Positions 3,451 to 49,079 of a stretch of DNA of 64,000 nucleotides are shown one piece after another. How positions within the stretch are numbered: the stretch's first letter is position 1; each line of letters opens with the position of its first letter. The position numbers and the translations under genes were made by a program. The notes beneath the pieces are model-generated. The model was not told the DNA's origin, made no database searches, and was given only the letters and a program-made list of their open reading frames with translations. Source of the DNA: Felis catus (lineage: Eukaryota). The stretch is from positions 124,001 to 188,000 of the forward strand of contig NC_058369.1 in NCBI RefSeq assembly GCF_018350175.1, written 5' to 3'.

Positions 3451-3656
3451 CTGCGACCAAAGCCCTCAGGTGAGGGCCTGGGGCCCGGACACCCTGAGAC
3501 TAGGGGGAGAACCCGGGGCCAGCCCCTGAGCCCCCGCCTGGGCTCCCAACCACCCTCCGTGGCACGTGGAGGTGGGGGAGCTGCCCCCACTGGAGGGGGA
3601 AAAGTGAGGGAGGGGCATTGTGAGTCACATCTGAGTCAAAGGTAGGAGGGGCTGCA

Positions 3657-4740
3657 GGCCCAGACAGAGATACACTGTCACGTGGGGAAACTGAGGCCCA
3701 GACACGGAGATACAGTGTCACGTGGTGAAACTGAGGCCCAGACACAGAGATACACTGTCACGTAGGGGAAACTGAGGCCCAGACACGGGGATACACTCTC
3801 ACGTAGGGGAAACTGAGGCCAGACACGGAGATACACTGTCACGTGGGGAAACTGAGGCCCAGACACGGAGATACAGTGTCACGTGGTGAAACTGAGGCCC
3901 AGACATAGAGATACACTGTCACATTGGGGAAACTGAGGCCCAGACACAGAGATACACTGTCACGTAGGGGAAACTGAGGCCCCAGACACGGGGATACACT
4001 CTCACGTAGGGGAAACTGAGGCCCAGACACGGAGATACACTGTCACGTTGAGGAAACTGAGGCCCAGACATGGAGATACACTGTCACGTGGGGAAACTGA
4101 GGCCCAGACACGGAGATACACTGTCACGTAGGGGAAACTGAGGTCCAGACACGGAGATACACTGTCACATTGGGGAAACTGAGGCCCAGACAGAGATACA
4201 CTGTCACATTGGGGAAACTGAGGCCCAGACAGATACACTGTCACATTGGGAAACTGAGGCTCAGACACAGCGATACACTGTCATGCTGGGGAAACTGAGG
4301 CCCAGACAGAGATACACTGTCACGTGGGGAAACTGAGGCCCAGACACAGAGATACACTGTCACATAGGGGAAACTGAGGTCCAGACACGGAGATACACTG
4401 TCACATTGGGGAAACTGAGGCCCAGACAGAGATACACTGTCACATTGGGGAAACTGAGGCCCAGACAGAGATACACTGTCACATTGGGGAAACTGAGGCT
4501 CAGACACAGAGATACACTATCATGTTGGGGAAACTGAGGCCCAGANNNNNNNNNNNNNNNNNNNNNNNNNNNNNNNNNNNNNNNNNNNNNNNNNNNNNNN
4601 NNNNNNNNNNNNNNNNNNNNNNNNNNNNNNNNNNNNNNNNNNNNNNNNNNNNNNNNNNNNNNNNNNNNNNNNNNNNNNNNNNNNNNNNNNNNNNNNNNNN
4701 NNNNNNNNNNNNNNNNNCACGTGGGGAAACCGAGGCCCCG
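3657..4740 (+). repeat. About 40-bp minisatellite (VNTR) in CIMAP1D intron 1
   Basis: About 22 visible units of cccagacacggagatacactgtcacgtggggaaactgagg, variants of 38-42 bp, interrupted by the N-gap. Confidence 0.97.
4546..4717. other. Assembly gap inside the minisatellite
   Basis: Run of N. Confidence 1.
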
Positions 4741-5312
4741 ACAGAGACACCCCACCACAGCTGCAGTGCTTGGTGTCCTCAGCAAGAATGTCAGGGCCAC
4801 GGAGCTGTCTTGCTACACGCAGATCAATGAGGCAGGGGCCTCGACCCTCACTGAGGATGCACAGCGTCAGAACCAGAGTGCCCGTGGCCCCTGCAGAGTG
4901 TCCAGGCCTCAAGCCTCCACACCCGCCCGTTCTCTCCTTGCCGCTCTCCGTTGTCGAAGGCACTTATCACTAATATGCTCTAAATTCTGCTTATTGGTTT
5001 TCCTTGTGTGTGTCTCCCCCACAGACCTTTGCTGCTCTGTCACTGCTGTAGCATCAGCACCTGCAAGGGTGCCTGGCCCATAAAATGCTCAGTCCTTGCT
5101 GGGTGGAGGACTGCACAAGAGCCAACAGAAATGCTATCTTCACACCCATTCCGCTGCGAGGAAAACTGAGGTTTAGGGAGGAGCAGGGAGTCATCAGAGC
5201 CTCCCCCCCTCCAGGTGGCTCCCAGAATATTCTAGAAGCCCCAGCACAGCTGGGGAGAATAGAGGACGAGATCCCACCACCATGGCCTCCCTCCCCCACG
5301 GTTGGTGCGTAC

Positions 5313-5415
5313 CGTTCTCCGAGGTGGCCGTCCCACAGGACTTCCTCAAGCCGGTCTGAACACTCTGGCACTCAGTGGTCAGCCGTGGAGCAGGGTTGCA
5401 GCCAAGGGTCCCCAT
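5313..5415 (-). CDS. CIMAP1D: CIMAP1D (ODF3L2) first coding exon
   Basis: ATG at 5415; MGTLGCNPAPRLTTECQSVQTGLRKSCGTATSEN-G matches the recalled ODF3L2 N-terminus (GLRKSCGTATxENG); phase-1 donor G|GTACGC. Confidence 0.9.
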
Positions 5416-6168
5416 GGTGAGCAGGGGAGGTGGCTGCACGAGGCACAGGGGCCGGGCAGGTCCTGCGCCTGGTGTTTTCTCCTCAGCTGCAGCGGCTCCG
5501 GGCCGCAGGTCAGGTACTGTCCTCAGTCCTTGCAGCCTGTGCTGGTGTCGGCAGAGCCCCAGCCTCACCACACCCCCCTGGGGACGGCACAGACAGTCCC
5601 TTGTCCCGCAGCACAGAGTCTTGGGGCCCCAGCCCTAGCAGGCTGGTCGGCGGACGTTGGCCTGGAAGTGAGGCCAGGATCAAGTGTCGGCCCGGTGGCT
5701 GGATGGTCCAGGGAAGAATCCGGTGTCAGCAGAGCAGGTCCCCGGAGAGCCGCCAAGCTGGGCAGCCGGGGCCAGAGAAGGCTCCAGGGAGCCAGAGCCA
5801 CAAACACAACACCTACAGCCATGTAGCAGAAGGGACTGGTGAGGTCATGGGCAGTGTGGCCCCATTTCTACAGCTGGGGAAACTGAGACGCAGCCCAAGG
5901 TCGTACAGTGAATTTACCACTCTGGGGGTTGCAACTTTAGGCCAAGAAGCCTGCCTGCATTCTTCCTTCCTTCTTGCCTTCATCCAATAAGCACCTATTG
6001 AGCACCTACTGCATACAGGTTCTGTTTGGGTTGGTGGGGATACAACAGGAATACACAGACAAGAAGGTAGTGTTCTCAGGAGAGGACAAAGCACATAGTA
6101 TATATAAACACATAGTAATATAAATAAGCACATAGTATATAAGGAGGCGTCAAATGTGCTAGAAAACA

Positions 6169-6389
6169 GGGGCGCCTGGGCGCTCAGTCGGTTGTGTCAG
6201 ACTTCGACTCAGGTCATGATCTCGCGGTTTGTGGATTCGAGCCCCGTGTCGGGATCTGCGCTGACAGCTCAGAGCCTGGAGCCTGCCTCAGACTCTGTGT
6301 CTCCCTCTCTCTCTGCCCCTCCCCCGCCCCCGCATATGTGTGCACCCACACGTGCTCTCTCTCAAAATAAATAAACTATTTAAAAAAAT
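6169..6389 (+). mobile_element. Feliform CanSINE (SINEC_Fc type)
   Basis: ggggcgcctggg...tcaggtcatgatctcgcgg...(CT)n...A-rich tail. Confidence 0.92.
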
Positions 6390-7835
6390 GGAAGAGAGAC
6401 ATTACTACAGACCCCACACATGAAAGGGATAGCATGGTCTGTGTGAAGCCACCAGAAAATTCCCATGTGCTCAGGCACTTCATGTGCCTCGTGTTGTTTA
6501 ATTATCTCAGCATCTCACTGACGGAAATGCAGCTGCTAAAACCTCACCTGTGGTTACAGGTGGGGAAACTGAGGCTCAGAGCTCAGGTCCCTGAGTAACG
6601 TCAGCAGAGCCAGGAGTTGAATCCAGGGCTCTCTGACTCAGATTTTAGCTCGAGGGTCCAGGTCTTCTCCCAGACTGCAACCCCCGCTCAGCCTTCTGGG
6701 AGTGCTGGGGGTCCACTGCCAGCCCTCCCTGGCACTCGAGGCCCCGCGGGGCCCAGTCTTGCCCGTTCTGCCCTCGCCCCCTCTCCTCTGGCCACAGTAG
6801 CAACCTCCCAGTCCTTAAAGCCACTCAAGCCAGTTCCCACCTCAGGGTGCTTACCTGGGCTCCCTTCACCTGGGGAGACTCGGCCAACAAATCAGCCCAT
6901 AGCCAGTCCCATCCTCAGTAACCTGTGGGCCCCCAAAGTACACAAGCCATTGCTTCCTTCCAGAAGCAGCACAAACTCCAGAGCTGTGACCAGAACTGGG
7001 CACTGAGGATGGAGATGGGAGATAGACACCCCCACCTCCTCCTCTCCCTCCTGGCAGAGTCTCTGATTGACCCAAGCTGGCCAGAAGTGCAGGATACGGC
7101 CGCTGGGGTCAGCCTCAAGGACCCTAGGCCAGGCAGAGAAAGAACCAGCGTGCCGGCCGGAGGACAGTCCTTCATCCAGGTGCTAGCTGGGACTCAGCCC
7201 CAGCTGCCTTAGCTTCCCCACTGTGACATAGGAAGGAGCCAAGAGCGAGTGTGGGGTGGGGAACAGACTGGAATGATTGCCTGAGCCTGAAAGGGAGGTT
7301 TTGGGGGCCTCAAGGTCCAGCAACATCACCAGACTGAGCTTAGGCACCCCAGCCGGCCTCGATCCATGACCACTCGGCTCCTCCAGCTCTCACTTTCAGC
7401 TCAGGACCCGCACAACTGCCAGGTAACAGCATGTGAATGAGAAGCTAATTAATTGTAAGCCCATGCACATGAGCCATGTTTTTAATCCAACGTATTCACT
7501 GGCAGAAAAGAGCAGATCAGCAAACTGAAACAAGGAAGCCCGGACTGGGATGGGGCACAGGGCTCTGCCCTGGCAACACGGCGCCGCGTGGGGGCCGCGG
7601 CTGAGGCCGCGGGCCTCAGTGCCTCGGAGGAGGCTGCAGGGTCTGAGCGCATAAGGGTTAACCCGACCTTTACCCATCTGTGTGCCCGCCGCGTGCAGGC
7701 ACTGTTCAGGTGCTGGGAAAAGAGGTGTGCACAAAACACACAAACTCCCTTCCTCACCCTTTTGTTGAAAGAAGCAAACAAGTGAGTTACACTGCTTTAG
7801 AAGGCAAAGCAGTGCCGTGGAGCAAAACCAAGGCT

Positions 7836-8035
7836 GGGGCGCCCCGGGGGGGCTCCGCCGGTCAGGCGGCCCACTTGGGCTCGTGATCTCACGGTCCGTG
7901 GGTTCGAGCCCCGCGTCCGGCTCTGTGCTGACAGCTCAGACCTGGAGCTGCTTCGGATCCTGTGTCTCCCTCTCTCTCTGCCTCTCCCCCACTCAAGCTC
8001 TGTCTTTGTCTCTCTCCAAAATAAATAAACATGGA

Positions 8036-8083
<48 letters not shown>

Positions 8084-8100
8084 CAGGAAGAAAGAAACAG
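7836..8100 (+). mobile_element. CanSINE with (GAAA)n tail expansion
   Basis: SINE body, (gaaa)n at about 8033-8095, TSD-like aaaaccaagg on both sides. Confidence 0.9.
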
Positions 8101-8440
8101 AAAACCAAGGGTAAGGAGAGGTTGGAGGTGTGGAGAGTTTCCAGTCTGACATGAAGTGGTCACTGAGAAGGTGACATTCACGCAGAGACTTGAAGGAGGT
8201 TGGGGGTGGAGGGGGCGGTCTGGGGAGAAGACACAGCAGGCAGAGGCACAGCGGGTACAAAGGGTCTGAGCCTCGAGTGCACCGGGCGTCCGGCAGGAGC
8301 AGCGAGGAGGCCCGTGTTGAGTGGAACAGAACGAGCGATGGGGAGAGAGGGAGCGGGCCGTGCAGGGTCCCGGAGGAGGCACCGCGGAGCCCCCGAGGGC
8401 CGCGGGCAGAGCCGGCACCTGCTCGAGCCGGTGCTCACTG

Positions 8441-8454
8441 GCGCCCTCTGGCGG
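8441..8454 (-). promoter_or_regulatory. CTCF-like motif in a small CpG-rich patch
   Basis: Minus strand reads CCGCCAGAGGGCGC, a close match to the CTCF core, within CpG-rich 8270-8520. Confidence 0.55.
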
Positions 8455-9474
8455 CCGCGGGGAAACAGACCGTGAGCGGGGCTCAGGGGAGGGGGCTGGT
8501 CCCGGACGGGTGTGGGGAGGTGGGGGGCTTGGTGGGCGGTGGTGGAGGAGGAGGTAAGAAGCAGGTGGGTCCTGGATCTATTTTAAAACTACAAGCAACA
8601 GGGTTTGTGGCACATTTGAGGTAGGGGTGAGGGGACCGGAGGTGTTGGGGACGCTCCCTGTTACTAGGAGGGAACACGCAGGGGAGGGGCAGGTTAGGAG
8701 AAGGTCTAGAGCTCAGTTTGGGAACTGTGAGGTGTGGACTCTCCGGTGGACAGCCAGCTACGCGGGTCCAGGCTGTTGGCTCTCTGGGCTACATAACAAA
8801 TCCCCCCCCCTCCCCGCAACACAGTGGCTCAAAAAACACCCACATTTCTTACCTCACAGCTTCTGAAGACAGTCCATAGACAGAGTTGGGTCCTCTGCTC
8901 AGGCTGCAGTGCTGCTGTTGGCCAGGGCTGAGGGCTCATCCAGAGGCTCCCCCGGGGAGGGGCCCACGTCCCAGCTCCCCGGGGTTGCTGCAGGATCTGT
9001 GGCTGTGGGACTGGGGGGCCCACCTCCAGCTGGCTTCTGGCCAGGTGGCCTCCAAGCATGGCTGCTTAGTTCCTCAAAGCCCCAAAGGAAAAAGTCTGCG
9101 CAACATGCAGGATGGAGCTTATGTTGTTTATAACAGTAACGGGAGCAGGTGTCCCACCCAGGGCCCGGGTTCTTCTTCCCTCTCTCAGCCCATCTCTTCC
9201 TGAACCCATCAGATCCTTCTTCAATCACGTATCACTGCCCCCAAATCCCCTCGCGTCCCTTCTTCCCCTGCTACCCGTCTTCTGCACAAGAACAAAATGA
9301 TCTTTTGAAGTCAAAAAGTCACCCAGTACCTGTGTCCTGCTCACAAAACATTCCCCAGGCTCCCACTGTGCCATCAACAAATCCAAACTTCTAACCTTGC
9401 CTTTGTTTGGCCGTGAGGGCACAGGCTGCATTTATTGGGCACCTACTACATACCAGCCTCTGTGCAGGTGCAAC

Positions 9475-9790
9475 AACACAGCCCACAAGAAACAGAATGC
9501 AAACCACATGTGCAATTTTGAATTTTCTAGCAGCCATGTCAGAAAAAGAAACAAGATCATTTTAATGATACATTTTATTTAACTCAGCATAACCAAAATG
9601 TCATTCCAGCATACGAAAGTTGTGCTTGAGACATTTTACATTCTTCTTTCCTGCTAAGGCTTCAGAACCTAGTGTGTCTTGTGCCCACAGCACATCTCAG
9701 CTTGGGGTCCAGATGCTCAGCCACGGTCCAGATGCTCGGTGACCACACGTGGCCACTGTGTGGTCAGCACAGATTTAGAGTGCTTTAGAA
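9475..9790 (+). mobile_element. hAT DNA transposon (MER33-like)
   Basis: aatgcaaaccacatgtgcaattttgaattttctagcagccatg...attttatttaac...cagcacatctcag. Confidence 0.6.
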
Positions 9791-10626
9791 CCAAACCCTT
9801 AGTCCTGTGGCAGTCGGTCCCCCAGGGGACACTGCAGAATGTCTAGGGGCACCTTCTGTTGCAAAGACTGGGCGGGAAGGGTGCTCCTGACACTTGAGGG
9901 TGTGGGAGCCAGGGATGCTGCAGGGGAGGACTGATGCAGAGGGCTGCAACCAGCATCTGTCCCCGCAGATCAGGCCCGCCCACATAGCCAGCACTGACAT
10001 CCCTGGACAGGATGCTTCCTGCCCTCCAGAAGCCCCACCATGCCCCCTTGCACTCCTCTCCTCCCCTCTACCCTGTAACCACCATGGTGACTTCAAAAGC
10101 AGGGCTATATTGTCCCCCCCTTTTTTTGCTTTACATAAATGGTAGTGCACTGCGTTCCCGTGAGCCCTCTTTCCCTGGACCTAGTGTGTACGATTCATCC
10201 TCTTGCTGGGTTCGACTGTAGACCATTCACTCTCATCGCTGGGTGTAATATCCCGTTGCATGAAGACGGCACACTTTATCTGATGAGCTTCTAGGAGGTT
10301 TCCCCTTGAGGCTACTGCAGATAATGCCGTTCCCAACATTCCAGGCGGAGGGCACAGCCTGTGCCAAGGCCCTGGGGAATCGCTGGGCCTTTGTGTTGAA
10401 GAGCGAGGAAGCTCTTGTGGCTGGACCAGCAGAGCAAGGAGGAGAGGAGGAGAGGGAGGCAAGGGAGGAGGACGGGGTGAGGGGGCAGGTGGTGGACATG
10501 GGCTTTTACCCTGAGGGAGGTGGGAGCCCTGAAGGGCCCTGGGCAGAGGAGGGGTGAGGTCAGGTGTAAGAGAAAAGAAGCCAAGGCTTCTTTGGACCTG
10601 AATCTCCTCAAGAACGGATCTGACCT

Positions 10627-10847
10627 CGGGGCGCCTGGGTGGCGCAGTCGGTTAAGCGTCCGACTTCAGCCAGGTCACGATCTCGCGGTCCGTGAGTTCG
10701 AGCCCCGTGTCCTGGGGCTCTGGGCTGATGGCTCAGAGCCTGGAGCCTGTTTCCGATTCTGTGTCTCCCTCTCTCTCTGCCCCTCCCCCGTTCATGCTCT
10801 GTCTCTCTCTGTCCCAAAAATAAATAAATGTTGAAAAAAAAAAAAAA
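10627..10847 (+). mobile_element. Young SINEC_Fc-type insertion with a perfect 17-bp TSD
   Basis: AAGAACGGATCTGACCT at 10610-10626 and 10848-10864; long uninterrupted poly-A. Confidence 0.95.
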
Positions 10848-11919
10848 AAGAACGGATCTGACCTTAACCCAGACGAGGGGGTCTTATTTCTTTAGTTGTT
10901 TATCGCCAGTCTCCCCCACACTCCTCTACGCAACATGCTAGCACACGCACACATAGGCGCGCGCACAGGAAGAGGCGGTAGGAGCCCAGAGCAGGGGCAG
11001 AGCAAACACCTTTGACTTGTGGGTGAAGGGGGCTATCACTGACATCACTCACCACTGCTGTGGGTCTCAGTCCCCACCATTCCCTTCTGGAATCATCTGG
11101 AGGCTGAAAGTGGGGCTGCACCGCCAGGAGGCTGGGTCAGTGACTGGCCTGCTGTTCTCTGTCCCTGGCACACGGGTGGCAGCAGGCCAGGTGTTCATGG
11201 GCCACCGCATCCAGCGTTAGCTGCGGCTCTGGCTCCCCAGTTGCCCTGATCTGTCACTCCCCCAGGGCACTCGCAATTGTCCTCTGTCCTGAGGTCAGCC
11301 CCCTGACTCAGACTCACGTGCCTCTGTGGCTGCCTGCCCCTTTGTTCCGAGCGGACTCTAACAAAGAAGACTTGTTCTCCCAAGACAAGAACACAGTGAA
11401 CCAGGGGAGCCAGGCTCCCCTCCGGTCTCCCTCCAGGAAAGTGGCAGCTCTCCACGTGGGACAGAGCTCTCGTGTTCTGCTGGGTGCCCGGCTGCATGTC
11501 TGCCAAGTCTCCATTTTACAGGTGCAAACACTGAGGTTCAGAGGAAGGAAGGGCTGTATTGGGAGGACTGGAGGGCTGGATAGGGGTCCCGGCAGGCTTT
11601 CCTGGAGCCTACAAACTCCCACCCGGCCAAGTGCTCTCTCTCCTCTCTGGCTCCATCCATCCCTCTGCTGCAGCCCTCTGCCTTCTTTGCTTTTCTAGAA
11701 CACACCAGGCAGCTCGAGCCTCAGAGCCTTTGCACTCACTGTACCTTCCACCCGGTACACCCTTTCCCCCACACATGCTTGCTAAGTCTCTGCTCAGACC
11801 CCTCCTTGAAACATCTTCCTCTGACCACCCAGCTTACCACTCTACCGATCCCTCTTCCACCTTACTCGTTTTTTCTCACAGAATGTATCACTAGCTAACA
11901 CAGTATACCATTCTTCCCA

Positions 11920-12050
11920 TTGCAGTGTTGGGCTGGAGTTGTGAGAGACGACTGTGCAGCTTGCAGGAGTTTCGTGAGCTGGCTGATGCCATGTGGGTAG
12001 TCATGATGGTGGTTTGATCAGCCACGACGGGATAGCGACACCACAGGAAT
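11920..12050 (+). mobile_element. Possible MER63-like hAT fragment
   Basis: cagtgttgggctggagttgtgagagacgactg...caggagtttcgtgagctggctg resembles the recalled MER63 5' end. Confidence 0.35.
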
Positions 12051-12099
12051 GAGCATGCGCCACAGAGTGAGGCTTTTTACCCTGTGTCTCCTGCCCCCT

Positions 12100-12225
12100 C
12101 CCCCTTCCATTAGAATGAACGCTCCTTGGGGCAGGGGTCTGCCCACCTTGACTTCTGCTGTCACCCTGGCACCTAGAACAATGCTTGGCATCTAGGAAGC
12201 ATTCAATAAATACTGGTTGAATTGA
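12100..12225 (+). mobile_element. L2 3' end fragment
   Basis: ttagaatgaacgctccttggggcaggg...cacctagaacaatgcttggcatctaggaagcattcaataaatactggttgaat. Confidence 0.65.
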
Positions 12226-12399
12226 GTGACCCTCATCCCTAGCAACTGCTCTCAGACTTTGACATCAGGTCCCCCGTGACAAACCACCCTTCGGCCTGAC
12301 TCTGGTCTCTGGCACCATTTCGCCAGACTCCGGAAACATCCTCCAACCTTTAGATGACACGCTCGAGTTCCCCAGCACCTTGGCCCCAGGGCGGTCAAT

Positions 12400-13100
12400 A
12401 AGCCCCCGGCCTCCAGCAACAGGGCTCCTTCTCGCAGAGGGATCCCAGCGCCCCTAGCCGCGATCCCGGCCCCGCGGGGAAGAGAGCAGGAACCCCGCGG
12501 CCTCGGACTCCGGTCCCAGAGACACCCCTCTGTGCACTCATGCCGCGCGTATCTATCGAGCGCCTGCTGCCTCCCGGGTTCCGCACGCAGATCCCGGGTT
12601 CAGGACCTCTCGCTGCCTCCCCGACACTGGCCCCGCGGCCGCGCGACCGAGACGTCGGGCCGGTGCCCACCCCAGAGGGCTGGGGGCGGGGGGCGAGCAC
12701 CGCAGTTCCTCGCGCGACCTCGCAAGCTGCCAGGTGCCCACAGCACGCGCCCCTGCCCCCGCGGGTCCGCGGTTCGGAGCCCTGCAGGCGCTGTGCGCGG
12801 TGCTTTGTGGGAAACACCGACCGGGGTCCGCGGCATGCCGGGAGTTGTAGTGCGGCAGCGCGGGGCGAGCGCAGGGCCCGCCGGGACTTGTGGGCGGGAC
12901 CGGGGCCGGAAGGCCGGATGCGAACGTGCTGCGGGGCTGGGGCGCCTCTGCCGACGGCAAGATTCGCGATGTCCCGCTGGCTAAGAAGATCGTCACCGAG
13001 GACGGCGGCGCAGAAAGTGCCCGAGCCCCTGCCCAGCCCTGACCCTAGGCGCCGGCCCGATCCGGAACCCTACCCCAACCCTAACCATACTGGGCACCCA
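12400..13100 (+). promoter_or_regulatory. Orphan CpG-island promoter not adjacent to any intact gene
   Basis: CpG-dense; GCATGCCGGGAGTTGTAGT 12833-12851 (ZNF143/THAP11-type ACTACAAnTCCC composite on the minus strand), GGGCGGGA GC box, ETS CCGGAAG 12906-12912, TCCTCGCGCGA. Confidence 0.75.
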
Positions 13101-16100
13101 TAGCCCGTGTGGACGGGCCGGGAGTTCAGTCTTATCCTTGGACGCTGAACCCCCTCCTTTCCCAGAAGCCCCAAAGCCAGCTCGGTCCACCCAGGCCCCT
13201 GTCGCAGACACCCGGGCACAGTCCTGCAACCTCAGCTCCCACCTTCCTCGCAGAACCACCTCCATGCTCTGAACTTGGCCCCGCCTCATCACTCAGACAG
13301 AACTGCTAGACTCCCGTCCGTGCCATCCGTGGCCTAACTCATGTCGCAGGTGCAGACGCCTGAAAGAAGCTTCCTGGGCAAGAGACCTTCTCTGAAGGGC
13401 TCTGGTGTGGGCGCCGACCGTGACCCCCGGCCTCAGCCTAACCCTAACCCCGACCTCAATCCCTACCCCTCCACCATCGTCACCCATCCAGCATTTCCCA
13501 ACCTCTGAAGTTCCCAGCACTGCTGGCATTGGGGCTCGATTGTTCTCTGGGCCCCGTGGGGGGGCGGGGGGGGGTTGAGCAGTAGCAGCCCCTATTGCCA
13601 TGCCAGGAGCACCCCCCCCCCCACTCCCGACAACCACCTGCCTCTGCTACATATCACCCAGGATCACCAGGGTAAGAACCACTGTCCTAGTGTGATAAAA
13701 CACCAGGGGTTCCCAGGTCTTAGCCTGCAGGTAGGTGGAGGAGAGGGGAGCTACCCACCTAACCAAAGGACATTTGCATTCTGTGCCCAAGACAGGCCAC
13801 AAACCCAGCCTGAGGACAGAGCCCCCTGCCCACTAGAACACACAGCTCACTTAAATGCTCCAGCAACCATGTTGAAAAAAACACAGTGAAAAAGGGACAT
13901 AAATAGCATCTGGCTGACTCAGTCAGGGGAGCATGCGACTCTTCTTGTTCTAGGGTTGTGAGTTTGAGCCCCACATTGGTGGAAAGATTACTTAAAAAAA
14001 AGTTTTAGGGGCGCCTGGGTGGCGCAGTTGGTTAAGCGTCCGACTTCAGCCAGGTCACGATCTCACGGTCCGTGAGTTCGAGCCCCGCGTCAGGCTCTGG
14101 GCTGATGGCTCGGAGCCTGGAGCCTGCTTCCGATTCTGTGTCTCCCTCTCTCTCTGCCCCTCCCCCGTTCATGCTCTGTCTCTCTCTGTCCCAAAAATAA
14201 ATAAATAAATAAAACATAAAAAAATTAAAAAAAAAGAATTAACATTCTAAAAAAAAAAAAAAGTCTTAGGGCACCTGGGCAACTTAGTTGGTTAAGCCTC
14301 TAACTCTGATTTCAGATCAGGTCATGATCTCTTGAGGCCAAGTGTGGCGGGCTCCGCTGGGCATAGATCCTGCTTAAGAGTCTCTCTCTCCCTCTGCCTC
14401 TGCCCCTCCCCAGCTCATGCTCTATAAATCAATAAATCAATACATAACTTTCTAAAAAAGTAGCATAGGGGCACCTGGGTGGCTCAGTTGGTTAAGCGTC
14501 TGACTTCCTTAAGCTCAGGTCATGATCTCACAGTTCATGAGTTTGAGCCCCGCATCAGGCTCTCTGCTGTCAGCATGGAGCCTGCCTCTGATGCCCTGTC
14601 CCTCTCTTTCTGCCCCTCCTCTGCTCACTCTCTCTCTTTCAAAAATGAATAAGCCTTTTTTTATTTAAGTTTATTTCTCTTGAGAAAGAGGGAGAGCACA
14701 CTCGAGCAGGGGAAAGGCAGAGAGAGGGCAAGAAAGAATCCCAAGCAGCCTCCTCGATGTCAGTGCAGGGCTCCAGCCCACGAACCAGGAGATCATGACC
14801 CGAGCCGAAAGCAAGAGTCAGACACTTAACTGACCGAGCCGCCCGGTGCCCCCAAAATAAATAATTTTTTTTTAAACTTTAAGGGGCACCTGGGTGGTTC
14901 AGTCAGTTAAGTGTCAGCTTCCGGGTCAGGTTATGATCTCACGGTTCATGAGTTCGAGCCTCGAATCAGGCCCTCTGCTGTCAGTGTGGAGCCTGCTTCG
15001 GATCCTCTGTCTCCCTCTCTCTCTGCACCTTCTCCACTCGCATTCTCCCTCTCTCTCTCTCAAAAATAAACATTTTGATAAAAAATTAAAAGGTAGCATA
15101 AATAAAATGAGTTTTATAGAATATAAGATAAAATGTATTTTATATATAGTATATTCAAAGTACAGTGGTTTCAATATGTAATCAATATTTTTAAAAAATT
15201 TTAACATTTATTTTTGAGGCAGAGAGAGACAGAGCATGAACAGGGGAGGGTCAGAGAGAGAGGGAGACACAGAATCCGAAACAGGCTCCAGGCTCTGAGC
15301 CGTCCGCACAGAGCCCGACGCGGGGCTCGAACCCACGGACCGTGAGATCATGATCTGAACTGAAGTCAGACGCTTAACCAACTGAGCCAGCCAGGCGTCC
15401 CTCAACATATAATAAATATTAGGATGTGTGACATTCTTCATACTAAATCCTCAAAGTTTACTCTGTATTTTCCACTTATGTGCATTTTACATTTAATTTT
15501 CATTGGATGTTTTTCATCTATAAGATTTAACAAAATTGCAGATGAAAAACAGATTCACAAAGCCAAGTTGTTCCAAACATACTTAAAAGTTTTCTAGTAC
15601 TTGAGTCAAGTATCTACTTGTAAGTTGAAACTTTAATTCAGAATTATATTTCAGGTGGTCAGTAGGGACAAGTCACTGGCGGTGCTGCCCTGGCCTCCGT
15701 TCACGGTGTGGCCCAAAGCTGTCACTTCGCCAGCCCGGCCCTCCGGTGGTTGCTGGGCCAGGCTGATGTAGCACGTGGCTGGAATCACCCAGCCACGGAC
15801 CCGGTGACCCATGGGCAAATCCTTCTGAACGATGTGAATTTACCACCACATCTGCGTGGATGGATATGGGCACGGATGGGGATGGGGAAAGGATGGCCCA
15901 CCGCCTCACCGCCTCACAGAGAAGCCAAAGAGTCACCAGCACTGCATCTTTCTGGGGCACAGCAGTGACTGCCTCGTCAGGTACAGCTGGTCCCCACTCC
16001 GTGACTGCTGTGGTCGGCACAGTCAGCCCGAGGGGAGAATGGTGAGGGCACTCAGTCGGGGCAGGACAAATGAGCGGGTGTCCACATGACGGACATGTGC

Positions 16101-16799
16101 ACAGGTAGAGGCACAGGCGACGGGCAGATGGATGGACAGACGGTCAAGGAGTGGAGAGATAGATGGATGGACAGTGGTGGGTGACACACGGACAGATGGG
16201 CAGATCTCTGGTTAGACTGACAGGACTGGCCCCAGAACTCCACCCTGGTCTGCCCGTGCCTCCTAGGGTCACTTTGGGCCTGTTCTGCCCCCTGCCCTGA
16301 GGGGCATCTGGGAGGGGCGCTGACTCATCTGCAGTTCTGGCCCCAGGCGTCATGCAGAACATGACTGCCGGCATCCGTGGCCTGTGCAAGAGGCTGCCCC
16401 CCCCCCCCCAACTACAGCTTTGTCTTCCATCTGTCCCGCGTGGAGCTGAGCAAAATGGTGGTCCGGGGCCCCAGACAAAGTCAGTACCAGCATGGCAAAC
16501 CCTTTGGACAAACCCTTGACCATCCTGCGTCCCACATGTCTACCTGCCTGCCTCCAGGGACACCCACATTGACCTCTGATGCTCCCGGTCTTCTCACTGG
16601 CGCATCACCCTGGGCCACCCTTCCCCTTCGGCACCTCCTCTGTTCTCCTCGAGCTCCTGGTCACCCTTTTGACCTCCCCCCGCCCCCAGCACAATCACCT
16701 GCCCTGCAGCCCAGTGCCCACAACAAGCTTGGTGGTGGGTCCCCAAGGTGTCCCACAGCCCTTCGGGTGGGGCCCCCATCAGCAAGAAGCCGCTGCTAG
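12918..16799 (+). pseudogene. Candidate decayed multi-exon gene of unknown identity
   Basis: Coding-like GC3-rich segments with splice signals: 12918-about 13017, 13350-13404, about 13607-13671 (AGG|GTAAGA), 15655-16041 (tttcag| ... ATG|GTGAGG), 16347-16799 (ccccag|); several in-frame stops and probable frameshifts. Confidence 0.4.
13905..15401. mobile_element. Cluster of about 7 CanSINEs in mixed orientation
   Basis: + copies near 13908, 14008 (young), 14267, 14467, 14883; minus copies 14660-14853 and 15190-15401. Confidence 0.9.
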
Positions 16800-19689
16800 A
16801 GGACAGCACGGCCTGACTTAGCAACAGGGCCTGAGGCCAGGGGTTACAGTCCTGGGAGCACTGGCCTCACCAACTCCTGCTCAGGTCCCCCAGCCTCGGG
16901 GTGATGGAGCCAGCACCCCAAAATCAGCTGTCACCAAGATGTGCCTTCCGGCTCCTCAGGGCCTAAGGATCCTCAGGGCACCCCCAACCTTGCCTATTCA
17001 ACTCCCTCAGCGCTACCCCAGCCTGAGGTCCCCCTGGTGGGGGGACCCGCCACAGTCCCCAAGGACACCGGGCCCAGCTGCGGGGCCTTTGCAGACTACC
17101 CCAACCCCACCCCGCACTGGGTGCCTCCGTTCAGTCTGAATCAGATATCACAGCCCAAAGCCTCTGCCCCCTTGATGCTCATGACAACTTAAATCTCAGG
17201 TCCTCAGACAGGCCCCAAGGGGTCAGGGAGGGTGTAGACCCCCGGGTCTAACAGCCCTGCCTGTGACAGCTACCTGGCCACCACCAGTTTGGGGCTGAGC
17301 TTCACAGAAAGAGACTCATGCAGTGTTGTCCTTCATGAGCATTCAGTGTTCATTATTTACTTGGGGCTCTGGCCCCCAACCTTGGTGCCCTGGGGATCAT
17401 CCCTCCTGCCATGCTCCCTTGGTTAGCTCAGCCAGGCAACTTCAGGGCAATTTTGCCAGCCCTCCAGAGCCTTCTGTGTGGGTCTTTATTGAAGAATCAT
17501 TCACAGCCTCCATAGCCTTCTCCACCATCGCTGAGACCCACAGAAGCAGAGAGTGACCACAGGAGGGGGGGCATGTCCTAGGTCTGGGGTCCTCCAGCAC
17601 CAGAGCTAGATGAAGGACCCCAGAAGACCCTGCCCTCATGGCTCCAGCCCACATCAAAGAAAGAGCTGTGAGCCCCCAACTGACCAGTAGCACCAATGAG
17701 TGGAGCTGGCCCAGCCCCGGTGGGAAGGGTGTCCCTGAAGAGAATGGGCACCTCTGGGGGGCTGGGCGAGTGGTCTCCCCTGGATACCCTCTGAGGAAGC
17801 CAGCACCCCCCCCCCCCAGAGAACTACTGCTATCATAGGAAGGTAGAGTCCAGGATGACAAGTCTTGGGTGGGGGGAGGCTGGGACCCTCCATGGGAAGG
17901 AGGTTTCCTGCCAAGGCCACTGAGGACTTCATCCTGGGCGGGGACAATGCCGGGAAGGAGGGGGGGATCTGCAGGCAGGCACTGCAGGAAGCTCAGGTTG
18001 GGGGGGGGCAGGGGATGTAGGGGAGGACCTCAGTCCCCACCCAGGCGGCTCCATGGGCTCAGTCTCCTAACAATGAGACCAGATATCCCAGATGCAGGCG
18101 CGAAATGCCGTTCAGTCCCCTCCAGTGCTGGTCCTGGGTTCCCAGAGTTCCCCCCCCCCCCCAGGGTCCACCTCGACCCTCTCTCCAGGCCCTGTCCCGT
18201 CCCTCTTCCCCCCCTCTCTCCCCTCCCCCCACCCCAGGTTCCAGCTCCTCCTCACCTCTGCCCAGAACCCTCTTAATCTGATCAGCCCATACCAGCGGTG
18301 ATTAGAGCTGTGAGTGTCCTTGAGCGTGAGGGTCTGTCATCCACGCAGGTAGAGCGTTTGGGGCTTGGAATGAGCACCATGGAGCACTGGTGATGGGTGG
18401 GGAGGCATAGCCCAGAGAGCTGGGTCACACCCTACAAGAGGCCTCAGCAGGGACGGAAGCAGGAAGCAGGGTCAGGGGCTGGGAAGAGGCCCATTCACCG
18501 GGCCCACTGCCCCCTGCCCGGGTTAAGAGCCCAGCTTCCCGAGAAAGGCCCGCACCTCTGGCCTGGGGAGGGCCGCACCTTGGAGTCCACCTTCCTGTGC
18601 CGCTTTCCCGGCACAAGGCTCGAGGGGGATGGGACCAAGGAAGACAGGACTCAGCTCACACAGACGCCTCAGTTTCCCCCCTGTGCTACCAGCCCCCGCT
18701 CTTGTGCCTCGGTTGCTGCCTCTGGCAAATGAGACACTGAGAGGACACAGGCGCAGGGCTAGTGGCCCATCGACACCTCATTGCCGGGGAAACTGAAGCT
18801 GCTCGGGAAAGACTCTGAGGAGGCAACCTTTGGGCCGAGACGGCACAGGGTGAGGGCACAGCCACGCCAAGGCCCTGAGGCTGCCCGACCCTGCAAGGCT
18901 CCCGGCAAGTGAGGATTCTTCCCTTTATGCCACAGGCAGCCTTGCGGTGTGAGTCACCGTGCGCAGAGAGGTGTCACTCTGGGTGCTGGTGATGCATGGC
19001 CACAAAGGACAAAGAAACGAGGCCAGGCTGAGAGGCAAGAGGAAACCGTGGACGGATTTCTCAGGACTCACTGATGACAGCTGTGAGTGGGGAGCCTGGC
19101 CAGAGTCCCTTCCCAGGCCTCCCTGTGGATCTCAGTACCTGTGTGGAACACAGCAGGGAGGTCCCAGACTCCCAAGGGCCAGAGCTGTCTTACCTGAGGG
19201 CAGACAAGCTCAGAGGCGGCGGCGGTACCTGTCTCAGCTCCATCACCCCCAGGAGACCCTCCCGTCTCGGAGAACATGACCCCTAGGAGACCCCCACCAC
19301 CCCAAAATCCTCACCCCGAAGGACCCCTCTTTCAGGAGGCCCCACCCCAGAAACCGCCCCCCCAGGAGCCCACCCCAGAGACTCTGGCCGCCAGGAGGCC
19401 ACCTCCCACCCACCCATCTCTGCACTTCCCGGGGGTAAGGAGGCTACTCTCCACCCCCGCCCCCGCTCAGCCTCCCCTGGCCTGGTTCTAATTTCCATTC
19501 GGTTGACCTCAACTGCCACCCCTCTCTGGCTTCCAGCCTCCAATCTTCCGGTCTCTCAAACTGGCGTGCGCTCATACCTTCCCGCTCCCGCTCCCTCTGT
19601 TCTGACTTCGGCCAGGAGGTCCCCCCGCCCCCCATCTCTGGCCCCGGGCCTCTGCCTCGCAGCGCCGCGTCGCCTCCAGGGTCGGGGGT

Positions 19690-19810
19690 CAGGACGGGAA
19701 ACCCCCTCGGGAAACCCCCAGGGACTCGCTGGAGGAGGGGGCGGCGGGAAGCAGCCGGGTCACCACTATTTAAGCCAGTCCTGTTGGGCGGGGGAAAGAG
19801 CCGGACCGGC
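19690..19810 (+). promoter_or_regulatory. MADCAM1: MADCAM1 proximal promoter: tandem NF-kB sites and TATA box
   Basis: GGGAAACCCC at 19696-19705 and 19709-19718, GC box GGGGCGG, TATTTAA at 19767-19773. Confidence 0.75.
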
Positions 19811-19871
19811 ATGGACCAGAGCCTCTGCCTCCTGCTCCCCTTCTTCCTGGGGCTCCTCCATCGAGGCCTCG
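19811..19871 (+). CDS. MADCAM1: MADCAM1 exon 1 (signal peptide)
   Basis: MDQSLCLLLPFFLGLLHRGL-G, donor G|GTCAGC; TATA-like TATTTAA about 40 nt upstream. Confidence 0.88.
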
Positions 19872-20064
19872 GTCAGCAAGGGAAGGGGCCCCGTTAGGGG
19901 AGCGAGTTTGGGGCCCGGGGCGGGGTGGGGGGGGGGGGTTGCTGGCACAGGGAGGACTCGAGCAGGGCGGCGGGGAGGCCGCTGAGGACCCTAAGGCGGG
20001 GACAAGGGGGTCCGCCGCTGGGGTGGGGGTGGGGGACAGGGCTGAGAGCGCCGTCTGCCCGCAG

Positions 20065-22922: not shown

Positions 22923-23297
22923 TCCTGCATAGGCTGACCTCCCAGGAGCCCCCTGTAACGACCTCCCCCAAGGCCGCCCCAGAGCTGAGCTCCACCCACA
23001 GCCCCAGGAGTCCTGGGCCCCCGCCTGGGAACAGCTCCACCAGGCCCTGTCGCCCTGAGATCCACCAGTCACCAGCACCGGGGGGTCTGGAGCTACTGTG
23101 TGAGGCAGCCTGTGGCCCCGGTATGTCAGCGAGCTGGACCCAGGCCCCCGGGGGTCTTGAAGCCTACGAGAGGCAGGAGGCTGGGGCCCTGGCTCGGCTG
23201 AGCGTGCTGTGGGCCAGGTGCAACCCTGAAGGCTGGTTTCAGTGTCGCCTGGACCCAGGGGGACAGATGGCCAGCCTCTACCTGGTCCCTGAAATCT
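22923..23297 (+). CDS. MADCAM1: MADCAM1 exon 4 (short mucin stalk plus third Ig-like domain)
   Basis: VLHRLTSQEPPVTTSP...RPCRPEI...LLCEAAC...WFQCRLDPGG...LVPEI; ttttccag| acceptor, T|GTGAG donor, 375 nt, phase 1-1. Confidence 0.9.
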
Positions 23298-23509
23298 GTG
23301 AGTTCTGGGGGCTAGGGAGGGGGCTGGGGGAGCCTCAGAGGGAGGAAAGCCTTGCATCAAGACCTTAGACAAGGAATGGTCCCGCCCGGCTTCAATTGCC
23401 CAAACTGTCCAGTGGGCTTCCCAAATGTAAGATCACGCTTACCTGGCAGGGCGAGGACTGTAAATCTAAGGGACTGTGTAGATTTCACAGCACTTTGTAA
23501 ACTCTAAAC

Positions 23510-23740
23510 TTTGTAGCCTACAACAGCCTATAGAATAGAATACAGCCACTTAGGTCATTTCAAATTTGCTAGTAGCCACATTCAGAACCATAAATGAGAC
23601 ATCTTACATTCTTTTCTCCTTTTTTCAAACTAAGTCCTCAAGACGTGGTGTGGATTTTACGCTGACCTCACTTCCCATTCACACATGCCATATTTCAAAC
23701 ACAGGCATGGGGGGCGGTCACCTCACTGGACAGCCCGTTT
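23510..23740 (+). mobile_element. MER33-like fragment in MADCAM1 intron 4
   Basis: tttcaaatttgctagtagccacatt...gagacatcttacattctttt...ctaagtcctcaagacgtggtgtggattttac. Confidence 0.55.
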
Positions 23741-23957
23741 CTAACTACAAGGTCCTATGTGCCTTTCAAAAGATTCACTCCAAAACCTCTGGATAGTCTA
23801 GCAGCTTTTGGACATTTCAAAAGACATTCTAAACCGTGAAGTCCTTTGTAAAGTTTCAGGGAACCCAGTAAATGTGGAGGCCCCTAGCAGATTCTACTAA
23901 GCTTCTCCCCCAAACCCGCCAAGAGGTGTTCAGAGCTCCCGACACTTCCTTCTCTAG

Positions 23958-24067
23958 GTCCCCCAACAACATCCGCAGCCCTGTGGCCGGGCAGCTTGGT
24001 GCTGGGGCTGCTCTTCCTGGCATTCCTCACCCATCGCCTGTGGAGACGCTGCAGGTCTGCTGGCTGA
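23958..24067 (+). CDS. MADCAM1: MADCAM1 exon 5 (transmembrane helix, short tail, stop)
   Basis: CPPTTSAALWPGSLVLGLLFLAFLTHRLWRRCRSAG*; the spliced CDS totals 1143 nt = 380 aa. Confidence 0.9.
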
Positions 24068-45861: not shown

Positions 45862-46075
45862 GAAGCAGGTCCTGGGGACCAAGGTGGACGCAGAGCGGGA
45901 CGGCGTGAAGGTGCCCACCACGCTGGCTGAGTACTGTGTGAAGACCAAGGCGCCAGCGCCCGACGAGGGCTCAGACCTCTTCTACGACGACTACTACGAG
46001 GACGGCGAGCCCGAGGCTGAGGCCGACAGCTGCTTTGGGGACGACGAGGACGACTCCGGCAACGAGGAGTCCTGA
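45862..46075 (+). CDS. CDC34: CDC34 exon 5 (acidic tail, stop)
   Basis: KQVLGTKVDAERDGVKVPTTLAEYCVKTKAPAPDEGSDLFYDDYYED...DSGNEES*; spliced CDS 711 nt = 236 aa. Confidence 0.97.
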
Positions 46076-46090
46076 CAGGGCGACCCCAAG

Positions 46091-46096
46091 AATAAA
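46091..46096 (+). terminator. CDC34: CDC34 proximal polyadenylation signal
   Basis: AATAAA 16 nt after the stop codon. Confidence 0.5.
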
Positions 46097-46398
46097 CGTA
46101 CAGATTTTACCTCAGCAGCCCCGGACTGTGTGGCGAGACTGCCCCATGGGAGGGGTGCTGCCCGGCCCCCTGGGTGGTCTCCTCCCGGGCGTCGCCCTCC
46201 CTTCCCGCGCGTGTGTCCCGGGTCCCTTGCAGCCCGCCAGGTGGGGCGGGCCTGGGCGGCGGTGGCCTGAGGGACGCAGACCCGCCCGTGTGCGTGTTCA
46301 GCTCCTGCTGGCTGAGCCAGAGACTTGGGCCTGCGGCTCGCGCTGACGGATTCACTTGTGGTCACCTCTTCTCTCTGCTTTGGTTTGTTTGGAATCTA

Positions 46399-46404
46399 AA
46401 TAAA
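46399..46404 (+). terminator. CDC34: CDC34 distal polyadenylation signal
   Basis: AATAAA after a U-rich upstream element (tttggtttgtttgg). Confidence 0.75.
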
Positions 46405-47636
46405 ACGACTTTATGAGAAGCTACAGAACCAACTGTCCTTGGCCTTCCCGAAGGACCGCAGAGAGCGGTGGGCCACCAGGTGCCCCTTCGGGCCAGGTCA
46501 CGGCCCCAGATTCTTGGGGCCAGCTGGTCTGCTGGCGGGGCCGGCCATCAGGCCCCAGGCGGCCCCTCTGTGGCCGCAGCACCCCCAAGGAGTCCTGTGT
46601 GCTGGTGTCACCCAGGCCCGGTGGCTTCATTTCAGTGTAACTGTTAAGTCCAGAGTGGCCTGGGCTCAGGGTCAGATGGCATCAGGACTGAGGTCCCCCC
46701 TTGGGTCAGACGAGCACACGCCCAGCCTGACCAGTCACTGCGCCTGGGGCTCAGACAACCCCACACAGGTGGGGGACGGGCCAGAGGGGCAGGTACATCC
46801 AGGGTGCACACAGATCCCCACGGCGGCCTGCACACGCCTTTCCCGGTTTGCCCTCGCGGTCTGGTGGTGTTTTAACCTGAATGATGTTTCTCCATTAAAA
46901 CGTGGAAGGTTTCACTCTTCATCTCTGGCTTTTCTTAAACCCGGAGGGAAGTGCAGGGTGGGGAGGGGCCCCTCTGGACTCAAGCGGTGTTCTCGGCGGG
47001 ACTGTGGCGGCCACACCTGTTCCCGCTCCTCCTGCACCTAGTTTGGGCCTCTGAGCTCTGTGGTGTATCACCAGCGACCCAGCCTCCGGAGTGGGAGCCT
47101 GGGCGTGTGACCCTCGCCCGTGTGCTGAGCAGGTACAGGCAGGGCCAGGCCAGTGGCTCATGTTTATAACCTCCACAGGGCGCCGAGGCCAGGCTGGGCA
47201 CTCCCTTCACCTCAGCCTAGAGGCATTTCCGGGGGGCGGTGTGGGGGGCTGGCAGCCTGCACGAGAAGACCTTGGTGGGTGGAGGTCTGGAAGCGGACGG
47301 CACGGTGGGGTGGCCCGTCCCCGCCCCACCCCGTCCGGGTGTCCTCACGGCACGGCGGCACGGGCTCCGGCGGGAGGACCCCGGGAGCAAGGCCGCTTCA
47401 CCACTCGGGGGTCACACGCACCACTTCTGCACAGGGCTGGACACGGGCGTGCACCCACCCAGACCCGAGGGGAGGGGCGCGGACCCCACGTCTCCATGGG
47501 AATCGTGTTCCCTTCAGGCCGTCCCCCACACAACTGCCAAGGAAGCTTCTGCACAGAGATCTGACTGATACCTGAGGCCTTGGGGTTCACATCCCATAAC
47601 CTATCTGCAAAACAGAGATCATAATTAGGGTTGCCC

Positions 47637-47808
47637 GGGGGCGCCTGGTGGCTCAGACATCCCGACTTCAGCCCTGGCCACGATCTCACGGTTCATGAAT
47701 TTGAGCCCCACGTTGGGCTCTGTGCTGACAGCTCAGAGCCTGCTGAGAATTCTCTCTCACGCTCTCTGCCGCTCTCTCACTGTCTCTTTCTGAAAAATAA
47801 ACCTTAAA
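47637..47808 (+). mobile_element. CanSINE with a 16-bp TSD
   Basis: ATAATTAGGGTTGCCC at 47621-47636 and 47809-47824. Confidence 0.9.
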
Positions 47809-47967
47809 ATAATTAGGGTTGCCCAGTTAAATATAAATTTCAGATAAATCATTCTTACTGTATATATGTGTATATATAATATGGTGGGTATATATCCTGT
47901 GCAGTGTTTGGGACATGTTTAGAAAGTATTTGTTGTTTATCTGAAATTCCAAGAACTCTCTATTTTT

Positions 47968-48215
47968 ATTTATTTTTATTTTATTATTTTATTTTTTTTT
48001 TTATTTTTTTTTCAACGTTTATTTATTTTTGGGACAGAGAGAGACAGAGCATGAACGGGGGAGGGGCAGAGAGAGAGGGAGACACAGAATCGGAAGCAGG
48101 CTCCAGGCTCCGAGCCATCAGCCCAGAGCCTGACGCGGGGCTCGAACTCACGGACCGTGAGATCGTGACCTGGCTGAAGTCGGACGCTTAACCGACTGCG
48201 CCACCCAGGCGCCCC
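47968..48215 (-). mobile_element. Young SINEC_Fc-type insertion with an about 17-bp TSD
   Basis: AAGAACTCTCTATTTTT at 47951-47967 and 48216-48232; body near-identical to the copy at 14008. Confidence 0.95.
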
Positions 48216-48875: not shown

Positions 48876-49079
48876 GCTAGAGCTGCAAGAAGAAACCGTC
48901 ACTTGCCAGGCTCAGCTTCCACTGAGTGGCCCTCGTTCTCAGGTGTGCTCCTGTCACCTTGGGCCCACCCAGGCTGACAGGCTAATCACGGCAAGTCCAG
49001 AGGGTGAGAGCTGCTTTGGAGAATCCCCACGGAAGAGGTTCCAGACCATGGTCTTCATTGAGCTGACTTCCTGAGCACC

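What the first reader, a model, noticed from the sequence alone, without database searches (positions are those of the whole stretch)
12918..16799. Unidentified decayed multi-exon gene between CIMAP1D and MADCAM1
Seen: just downstream of the orphan promoter, the frame offset by one base from the ATG at 12918 reads with strongly coding-like codons ANVLRGWGASADGKIRDVPLAKKIVTEDGGAE, as if ATG GCG lost one G. Further splice-bounded segments follow: 13350-13404 (CRRLKEASWARDLL*RAL), ending 13671 (TTTCLCYISPRITR, AGG|GTAAGA), 15655-16041 (VVSRDKSLAVL...IYHHICVDGY...KSHQHCIFLGHSSDCLVRYSW...GRM, donor GTGAGG) and 16347-16799 (ASCRT*LPAS...NYSFVFHLSRVELSKMVVRGP, then open to the stop at 16799). The last three join in phase 0. 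Four stops at 15769-15837 cluster where another frame (LLGQADVARGWNHPATDPVTHGQILLNDV) looks coding, suggesting compensating frameshifts. I cannot assign a family. Inference: a unitary pseudogene, or a gene broken here by homopolymer errors and intact in other mammals.
Basis: inference. Interest (0 to 1): 0.7.

Follow-up and report, generated by a model that had tools for sequence, protein, structure and literature searches.

The report
Fossil of lost MFSD14 transporter gene
This stretch of a cat-family genome holds the broken first and last exons of an MFSD14/HIAT1-type membrane-transporter gene, likely the remains of the third family member that fish and chickens still have and mammals lost, with a promoter that likely still fires weakly.

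Summary
The locus is an intron-bearing pseudogene of the MFSD14/HIAT1 transporter family. Of MFSD14A's 12 exons (assembled from this genome), three match the window in order on the + strand: exon 1 (12926-13012), exon 11 (from 16347) and exon 12 (to 16816), each above every null. Exon 10 is a weak candidate; exons 2-9 are undetectable and probably deleted. Lesions: exon-1 donor GT>GA, no in-frame ATG, frameshifts. Puma and another mammal share some lesions, so assembly error does not explain them. Fourfold sites are saturated against MFSD14A (7 of 24), and MFSD14A lies 590 kb from VCAM1 as the relic lies beside MADCAM1. A published reconciled tree has a chicken LOC428335/zebrafish hiat1a clade marked lost in mammals. 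This relic is probably that gene; its map position in chicken or fish was not checked. RNA evidence is thin. The scan's earlier notes hold nothing on this.

The parts
12301..13100 (.). CpG-island promoter of the dead gene
   Evidence: CpG obs/exp 0.73-1.12, GC 0.66-0.79 in 200-nt windows
12833..12851 (-). ZNF143/THAP11-type motif (motif recalled); the only match in the 64-kb window, none near the MFSD14A or B starts
12918..12920 (+). Out-of-frame ATG, in the position of MFSD14A's upstream ATG (inferred)
   Evidence: ungapped alignment
12926..13012 (+). Relic exon 1 coding part; start codon now GTG (inferred); MFSD14A-type N-terminal motif
   Evidence: 9 of 15 residues, score 49 vs null max 30/31; 38.4 bits, z 9.7
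13013..13018 (+). Destroyed exon-1 donor (GA in place of GT); the puma model uses a phase-1 junction 5 nt further on
   Evidence: P0001
13350..13795 (+).
   Evidence: run X4, depth 2.6, shorter side 26 letters, weak
13906..15416 (.). Cluster of carnivore SINEs (name recalled)
   Evidence: repeat mask; sequence
15405..15650 (-).
   Evidence: 39 other matches among 40 scored; 1 of 3 copies has a weak Dimer_Tnp_hAT match, E 0.045, below cut-off
15940..16041 (+). Candidate relic exon 10 (102 nt vs 98; phase-1 donor at 16042)
   Evidence: end-anchored score above all 250 null donors; unanchored p 0.05-0.07; not seen by the DNA profile, z 0.4
16347..16512 (+). Relic exon 11 with intact phase-1 acceptor; 3' end approximate, no donor recognisable
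   Evidence: 18 of 41 columns, score 78 vs null max 38/41; 63.6 bits, z 20.4
16397..16409 (+). C-run at the frameshift inside exon 11 (25 nt where MFSD14A has 21)
   Evidence: not checked against reads
16598..16816 (+). Relic exon 12: last membrane helix and C-terminal motif in different frames, TGA at 16814-16816; acceptor by homology reads AC at 16596-16597
   Evidence: 30 of 67 columns, score 86 vs null max 49/45; 63.4 bits, z 16.0. An alternative AG before 16558 is in frame but followed by a stop

Best explanation
The locus is an intron-bearing pseudogene of the MFSD14/HIAT1 transporter family, likely the orthologue of zebrafish hiat1a and chicken LOC428335, a third paralogue that likely arose in the early vertebrate genome duplications and was likely dead before the cat lineage split from its relatives. 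Shown: exons 1, 11 and 12 survive in order with MFSD14 intron positions; the exon-1 donor is destroyed; there is no in-frame ATG; exons 11 and 12 are frameshifted. Inferred: exons 2-9 (with exon 10, residues 29-367 of MFSD14A, most of the membrane helices) were deleted. Inferred: the ancestral product was a 12-helix MFS transporter of the Hiat1 type, reported to move ammonia in crab and zebrafish. Inferred: today the locus makes no protein, and its unmethylated CpG-island promoter drives weak + strand non-coding RNA. No canonical poly(A) signal lies between the relic's stop and 22305, inside MADCAM1, so such RNA could run on into MADCAM1.
For: Discovery path: a read-through of 15666-16796 hit 1 of 1.84 billion proteins, an unnamed ORF from another mammal (P0002). 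P0002 hit two intact exons in this genome (E 1.8e-5, 6.6e-5). These belong to 12-exon genes of 490 and 506 aa; the first matches by eye the human MFSD14A row shown in PMC5627054 supplement 1 (about 400 of 490 residues displayed), and both lengths match that paper's table. Exons 1, 11 and 12 beat all 13 null regions and 15 shuffles and all 60 null segments, and are the top hits in the whole masked window on both strands (38.8 vs 22.1, 64.3 vs 24.7, 65.7 vs 28.9 bits). Identity to MFSD14A by codon position is 48, 55 and 26 of 67; fourfold sites 7 of 24, against 49 of 171 for MFSD14A vs B; no non-coding similarity. VCAM1 lies about 590 kb downstream of MFSD14A on the same strand. Only two intact family genes were found (2 matches among 10 and among 6 candidates). 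Chicken and zebrafish have two MFSD14A-like genes, mouse one; the tree in PMC9333335 S1 File marks the LOC428335+hiat1a clade lost in mammals. Window vs P0002: 17 of 52 true-frame codons differ against 37 of 126 elsewhere (p 0.72). Simulated exons 2-10 at the decay level that reproduces exons 1, 11 and 12 score medians of 27-77 bits; observed 13-19.5.
Against: Standard tools barely see it: tblastn of full MFSD14A gives E 0.002 for exon 11 at window scale, 0.71 for exon 1, nothing for exon 12, and nothing at genome scale. The genome search with exon 12 ranks the window 8th of 14, E 2.29; the exon-11 search did not list it. Pfam finds no MFS match in the relic. The scoring schemes are my own and several were tried. 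No chicken or fish sequence or map position could be examined, so orthology to hiat1a rests on A-type exon 1, paralogon logic and a tree read from figure text. GC-rich drift and neutral decay also lower fourfold identity. At 40% decay the short exons 2, 8 and 10 would be missed half the time or more. The excess of changes over the MFSD14A-B pair is not significant (17 of 52 vs 8 of 51, p 0.065), nor is window vs puma (5 of 55 vs 4 of 125, p 0.13). RNA: 3 reads among 25.8 million records read.
Confidence: 0.8

Rival explanations
1. A later, partial DNA-level duplicate of MFSD14A (mammal-era), unrelated to hiat1a/LOC428335, that decayed in place.
For: All three exons score higher against MFSD14A than B, and exon 1 matches only A. 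A partial MFSD14C exists in human, grouped with MFSD14B, so such duplicates occur.
Against: Fourfold sites as saturated as between A and B; first and second positions far better kept than third, which means long purifying selection after the split; no intron, UTR or flank similarity; exon 11-12 spacer about 85-100 nt against 1041 nt in MFSD14A; VCAM1/MADCAM1 paralogy.
Confidence: 0.1
2. An MFSD14-family pseudogene of ancient origin, but a different lost paralogue from hiat1a/LOC428335.
For: No chicken or fish sequence or position was examined; two genome duplications allow four copies.
Against: The one clade marked lost in all three mammals within the MFSD14 part of the published tree is sister to MFSD14A, which fits the A-type exon 1.
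Confidence: 0.05
3. Processed (retro) pseudogene fragments, or chance resemblance in GC-rich non-coding DNA around an orphan promoter.
For: Weak E-values in standard searches; codon bias at chance level.
Against: Three independent exon matches in order and strand; a donor remnant exactly at the end of exon 1 and an acceptor exactly at the start of exon 11 with the right phase; extra sequence between exons 11 and 12.
Confidence: 0.03
4. An intact gene broken only by homopolymer errors in this assembly.
For: The exon-11 frameshift lies in a 13-C run that was not checked against reads; P0002 keeps exon 11 in one frame.
Against: Nine exons undetectable; dead exon-1 donor and lack of in-frame Met shared with puma; exon-12 lesions shared with P0002; DNA contig X15 identical over 11800-13885.
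Confidence: 0.02

Closest known systems
MFSD14A / HIAT1 (490 aa; G000:C17:85371648-85414769; PMC5627054, PMC5263138, PMC10023664)
   Same: Exon 1, 11 and 12 sequence (39 of 67 residues in ungapped blocks), intron positions and phase, upstream out-of-frame ATG, C-terminal motif, linkage to a VCAM1/MADCAM1-type gene.
   Different: MFSD14A is intact with 12 exons over 43 kb; the relic spans 3.9 kb, lacks exons 2-9, is frameshifted, and shares no synonymous-site or non-coding similarity.
Zebrafish hiat1a (Q6PGV6) and chicken LOC428335 (A0A1L1RR63), the clade marked lost in mammals in PMC9333335 S1 File
   Same: Expected place in the family (sister to MFSD14A) and expected absence of an intact mammalian copy.
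   Different: Those are intact genes; their sequences and map positions were not seen here, so orthology is inferred.
MFSD14B / HIATL1 (506 aa; G000:C31) and human MFSD14C/HIATL2
   Same: Exons 11 and 12 also match (26 of 51 residues).
   Different: Exon 1 does not match. MFSD14C groups with MFSD14B in the published tree and is a different locus (recalled).
Unitary pseudogenes of lost ohnologues, such as sox15 in amniotes (PMC8244163, search listing only)
   Same: A decayed syntenic relic of a gene kept in other vertebrates.
   Different: Here the CpG-island promoter survives and sits 7 kb upstream of the next gene on the same strand.

Membership tests
MFSD14/HIAT1 family (by descent) | Sequence homology to MFSD14A/B coding exons | tested here: met
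   3 of 12 exons above all nulls, 1 weak candidate, 8 not found
MFSD14/HIAT1 family (by descent) | Shared intron positions and phases | tested here: met
   exon-1 end and phase-1 exon-11 start coincide; exon-11 end not recognisable
MFSD14/HIAT1 transporter (working member) | Open frame of about 490 aa with 12 membrane helices | tested here: not met
   residues 29-367 unrepresented or doubtful; frameshifts; no in-frame ATG
MFSD14/HIAT1 transporter (working member) | D-R/K-X-G-R-R/K motif between helices 2 and 3 (PMC10023664), in exon 4 | tested here: not met
   exon 4 at null level
MFSD14/HIAT1 transporter (working member) | Pfam MFS_1 match | tested here: not met
   none in relic pieces; 2 of 5 single paralogue exons match weakly, below cut-off
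hiat1a/LOC428335 clade | Closer to MFSD14A than to B, yet anciently separated | tested here: met
hiat1a/LOC428335 clade | Groups with chicken and zebrafish sequences in a tree | not testable with these tools
hiat1a/LOC428335 clade | Those genes lie beside MADCAM1/TPGS1/CDC34 | not testable with these tools
   no listing in paper searches gave their position; indirect support from MFSD14A-VCAM1 linkage and hiat1b named with sass6, trmt13, lrrc39, dbt
Unitary pseudogene | Disabling lesions | tested here: met
Unitary pseudogene | No intact copy of the same paralogue elsewhere in the genome | tested here: met
   only MFSD14A and B found; these searches score only the best candidates
Unitary pseudogene | Neutral evolution since death | tested here: inconclusive
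   17 of 52 vs 37 of 126, p 0.72; small numbers, protein-level only
Processed pseudogene | Introns removed | tested here: not met
   splice-site remnants at exon ends; extra sequence between exons 11 and 12

The most novel reading that the evidence does not exclude
Mammals lost a third Hiat1-type ammonia transporter near the placental radiation, but its housekeeping CpG-island promoter and first exon were kept and re-used as an upstream promoter for MADCAM1, splicing to exon 4 to give a short isoform without the integrin-binding Ig domains, as in the puma RefSeq model XP_025772067.1.
Probability: 0.15. Interest if true: 0.65.

Novelty: new member of a known kind. Interest (0 to 1): 0.45.

Why it matters
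It gives a physical address to a gene loss so far seen only as a 'LOST' leaf in an automated family tree. With the address, the loss of this Hiat1-type transporter can be dated across marsupials, monotremes and placentals, and shared lesions can show whether it died once or several times. Hiat1 proteins are reported ammonia transporters in crab and zebrafish (PMC10023664; bioRxiv 10.64898/2026.08.28.747819), and mouse Mfsd14a is needed for sperm formation (as cited in PMC10023664), so the loss can be set against nitrogen excretion or redundancy with MFSD14A. It also explains an orphan CpG island and a doubtful puma MADCAM1 model. The kind of object, a unitary pseudogene, is ordinary.

Tried and rejected
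Word-index protein searches: exon-1 peptide, longer proteins, 1 hit among 118 candidates (the puma model); near lengths 0 of 8; 15655-16041 frame 0 of 20. These searches did not find MFSD14A/B either, so they say nothing on intact orthologues in other mammals. ESM Atlas: only low-recognition hypothetical clusters or nothing. Rfam 5000-20000: 17 matches, only the tRNA-like one inside a SINE above its gathering score. Metagenome scans: 0 of 345 and 2 of 75 stretches; the two (L015, L016; 22 residues, 50%) were not examined. My first reading, 'chance ORFs around an orphan promoter' (75%), was overturned. Eye-catching matches for exon 5 (13651-13670 z 1.8; 15773-15792 z 2.2), exon 3 at 13350 (p 0.012) and exon 8 at 15655 (p 0.008; about 200 anchor tests) are treated as chance. 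The lenient local alignments over-extend and were not used beyond 15660. MADCAM1 exon 3 did not find VCAM1; the C2-set family search did. The sigma-70 scan is irrelevant to a mammal. Zhouyao et al. 2022 is not held. Earlier-finding look-ups gave nothing on this locus or family.
Full report
Setting. The window is G000:C2:124001-188000, a felid genome by its SINEs (recalled) and its 91-96% match to a puma protein model. MADCAM1 starts at 19811 on the plus strand; its exon 3 matches PDB MAdCAM-1 at E 1.6e-44. A CpG island covers about 12301-13100, with one ZNF143-type motif, the only one in the window (motif recalled).

Checking the observation. Taken alone they are not more than chance. With a codon model trained on the window's real exons, the best segment scores 14.2 bits, reached by 41% of 500 shuffles of the island and 10 of 54 other windows; 15655-16041 sits at the shuffle median; four stops match the 3.96 expected. 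One search used three training exons in the wrong frame and was superseded. Pfam, Rfam, the ESM Atlas and word-index searches gave no family. At that point I favoured chance ORFs.

What changed the reading. A read-through of 15666-16796 matched one protein among 1.84 billion, an unnamed 190-aa ORF, P0002 (E 4e-17). It aligns to 16227-16808 across intron and exon alike, 124 of 178 codons unchanged, with about eight frameshifting indels, so it is orthologous DNA of another mammal, about 15% diverged (inference). Searching this genome with P0002 gave two other places, E 1.8e-5 and 6.6e-5, both intact splice-bounded exons. I fetched both loci and assembled two 12-exon genes with AG/GT at every junction, 490 and 506 aa. 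The first matches by eye the displayed part of human MFSD14A in PMC5627054 supplement 1; the lengths match MFSD14A and MFSD14B in that paper's table.

Exon-by-exon anatomy. A frameshift-aware protein alignment over 12500-19800 found exon 1 (12965-13009, score 49), exon 11 (16349-16469, 78) and exon 12 (16609-16807, 86), against null maxima of 30-49 from 13 regions and 15 shuffles; the other nine exons stayed within their nulls. A nucleotide profile gave 38.4, 63.6 and 63.4 bits (z 9.7, 20.4, 16.0; above all 60 nulls), with the exon-1 match running into a donor remnant and the exon-11 match starting at its phase-1 acceptor. These three are the top hits in the whole masked window, both strands. 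Exons 2-10 scored 13-19.5 bits in the two unique stretches between exons 1 and 11. Simulated decay that reproduces the three real scores gives exons 2-10 medians of 27-77 bits (12 runs each); at heavier decay the short exons would often be missed. Only about 1.8 kb of non-SINE DNA lies between exons 1 and 11, against 1018 nt of coding needed. Deletion is therefore the likelier fate. Exon 10 is a candidate at 15940-16041: anchored at the 16041 donor it beats 250 null donors and joins exon 11 in phase 1, but that was one of about 200 anchor tests, unanchored p is 0.05-0.07, and the DNA profile misses it.

Against. Plain tblastn finds exon 11 at E 0.002 at window scale and nothing at genome scale. 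A genome search with exon 12 ranks the window 8th of 14. The case rests on three ordered, phased matches scored with my own schemes.

Lesions. Exon-1 donor GT>GA; the puma model reads Glu at that codon and has no Met in this frame, so both defects predate the cat-puma split (inference from protein). Exon 11 has 25 nt across the C-run where MFSD14A has 21; P0002 keeps one frame there, so this shift is lineage-specific or an assembly error. The exon-12 acceptor position reads AC, one base closer to the helix than in MFSD14A, and P0002 is in register there; an alternative AG before 16558 leads to a stop four codons in. The last helix and the C-terminal motif lie in different frames. DNA contig X15 matches 11800-13885 exactly.

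Age and origin. Identity to MFSD14A at codon positions 1, 2, 3 is 48, 55, 26 of 67; fourfold sites 7 of 24, equal to the 49 of 171 between MFSD14A and B; blastn finds only the exon-1 motif and chance-level matches. So the gene separated long ago, stayed under selection, then died. Of 52 true-frame codons, 24 match A or B in both species, 12 differ in both alike, 8 only here, 6 only in P0002, 2 in both differently. True-frame change equals off-frame change (17 of 52 vs 37 of 126, p 0.72). Death therefore came before, but probably not long before, the split from P0002's species (inference). VCAM1 lies about 590 kb downstream of MFSD14A on the same strand, mirroring relic-MADCAM1; VCAM1-MADCAM1 paralogy is established knowledge, recalled.

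Literature. PMC5627054 (passages, one supplement row, supplement 2 whole): chicken and zebrafish each have two MFSD14A-like proteins, mouse one. PMC9333335 (passages; S1 File part 4 of 13, a figure read as text, topology taken from line order): chicken LOC428335, 'n350*LOST' (the mouse-rat-human node) and zebrafish hiat1a form a clade (0.909) set off by a duplication from MFSD14A/hiat1b. PMC8389408 (one passage) names hiat1b with sass6, trmt13, lrrc39, dbt, which are MFSD14A's human neighbours (recalled). PMC10023664 (passages, supplement): crab Hiat1 moves ammonia, sodium-dependent. bioRxiv 10.64898/2026.08.28.747819 (passages; supplements not seen): hiat1a/b rise in rhcgb crispants. PMC5263138 and PMC6439221 (passages) add nothing on a third paralogue. 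No listing in searches or 98 describes this relic; only listings were read (40 of 65, 25 of 338, 20 of 32), and genome-annotation databases were not available.

Present activity. On 11800-13885, 2 reads in run X24 and 1 in X21 were laid among 12.9 million records each (1-2% of each run), all oriented as plus-strand RNA in the usual library convention. This suggests weak non-coding transcription and no more. The first canonical poly(A)-type hexamer after the relic's stop is at 22305, inside MADCAM1, and the puma model splices exon 1 to MADCAM1 exon 4; whether that splice is real is open. Nothing downstream of 13885 was checked against reads.

Verdict. A real, intron-bearing unitary pseudogene of the MFSD14/HIAT1 family (about 0.95), probably the lost mammalian orthologue of hiat1a/LOC428335 (about 0.8). 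It is not a working family member. New member of a known kind; interest 0.45.

Noticed in passing
window 12540-13017 joined to 22923-24066: Puma RefSeq model XP_025772067.1, named MADCAM1, joins the island and relic exon 1 to MADCAM1 exon 4 and lacks exons 1-3 (signal peptide and both Ig domains). Either a mis-annotation or a real read-through splice.
   Followed up: partly
G000:C17:85371640-85371651 (L024): MFSD14A has a 3-codon upstream frame starting 8 nt before its start codon, whose stop overlaps the start; the relic keeps an ATG at the same spacing.
   Followed up: partly
window 3656-4545: 41-bp tandem repeat, 22 copies, 89% matches, in a CIMAP1D intron.
   Followed up: no
window 46000-55200: No serine-protease motif (recalled patterns) in any frame between CDC34 and BSG, where human has GZMM (recalled); the gene may be lost or decayed here.
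   Followed up: partly
window 15405-15650: Old hAT/Charlie-like repeat fragment inside the pseudogene.
   Followed up: partly
PMC9333335 S1 File and PMC5627054: The chicken gene named MFSD14B groups with mammalian MFSD14A, and true MFSD14B is marked lost in chicken, so names in this family mislead.
   Followed up: no
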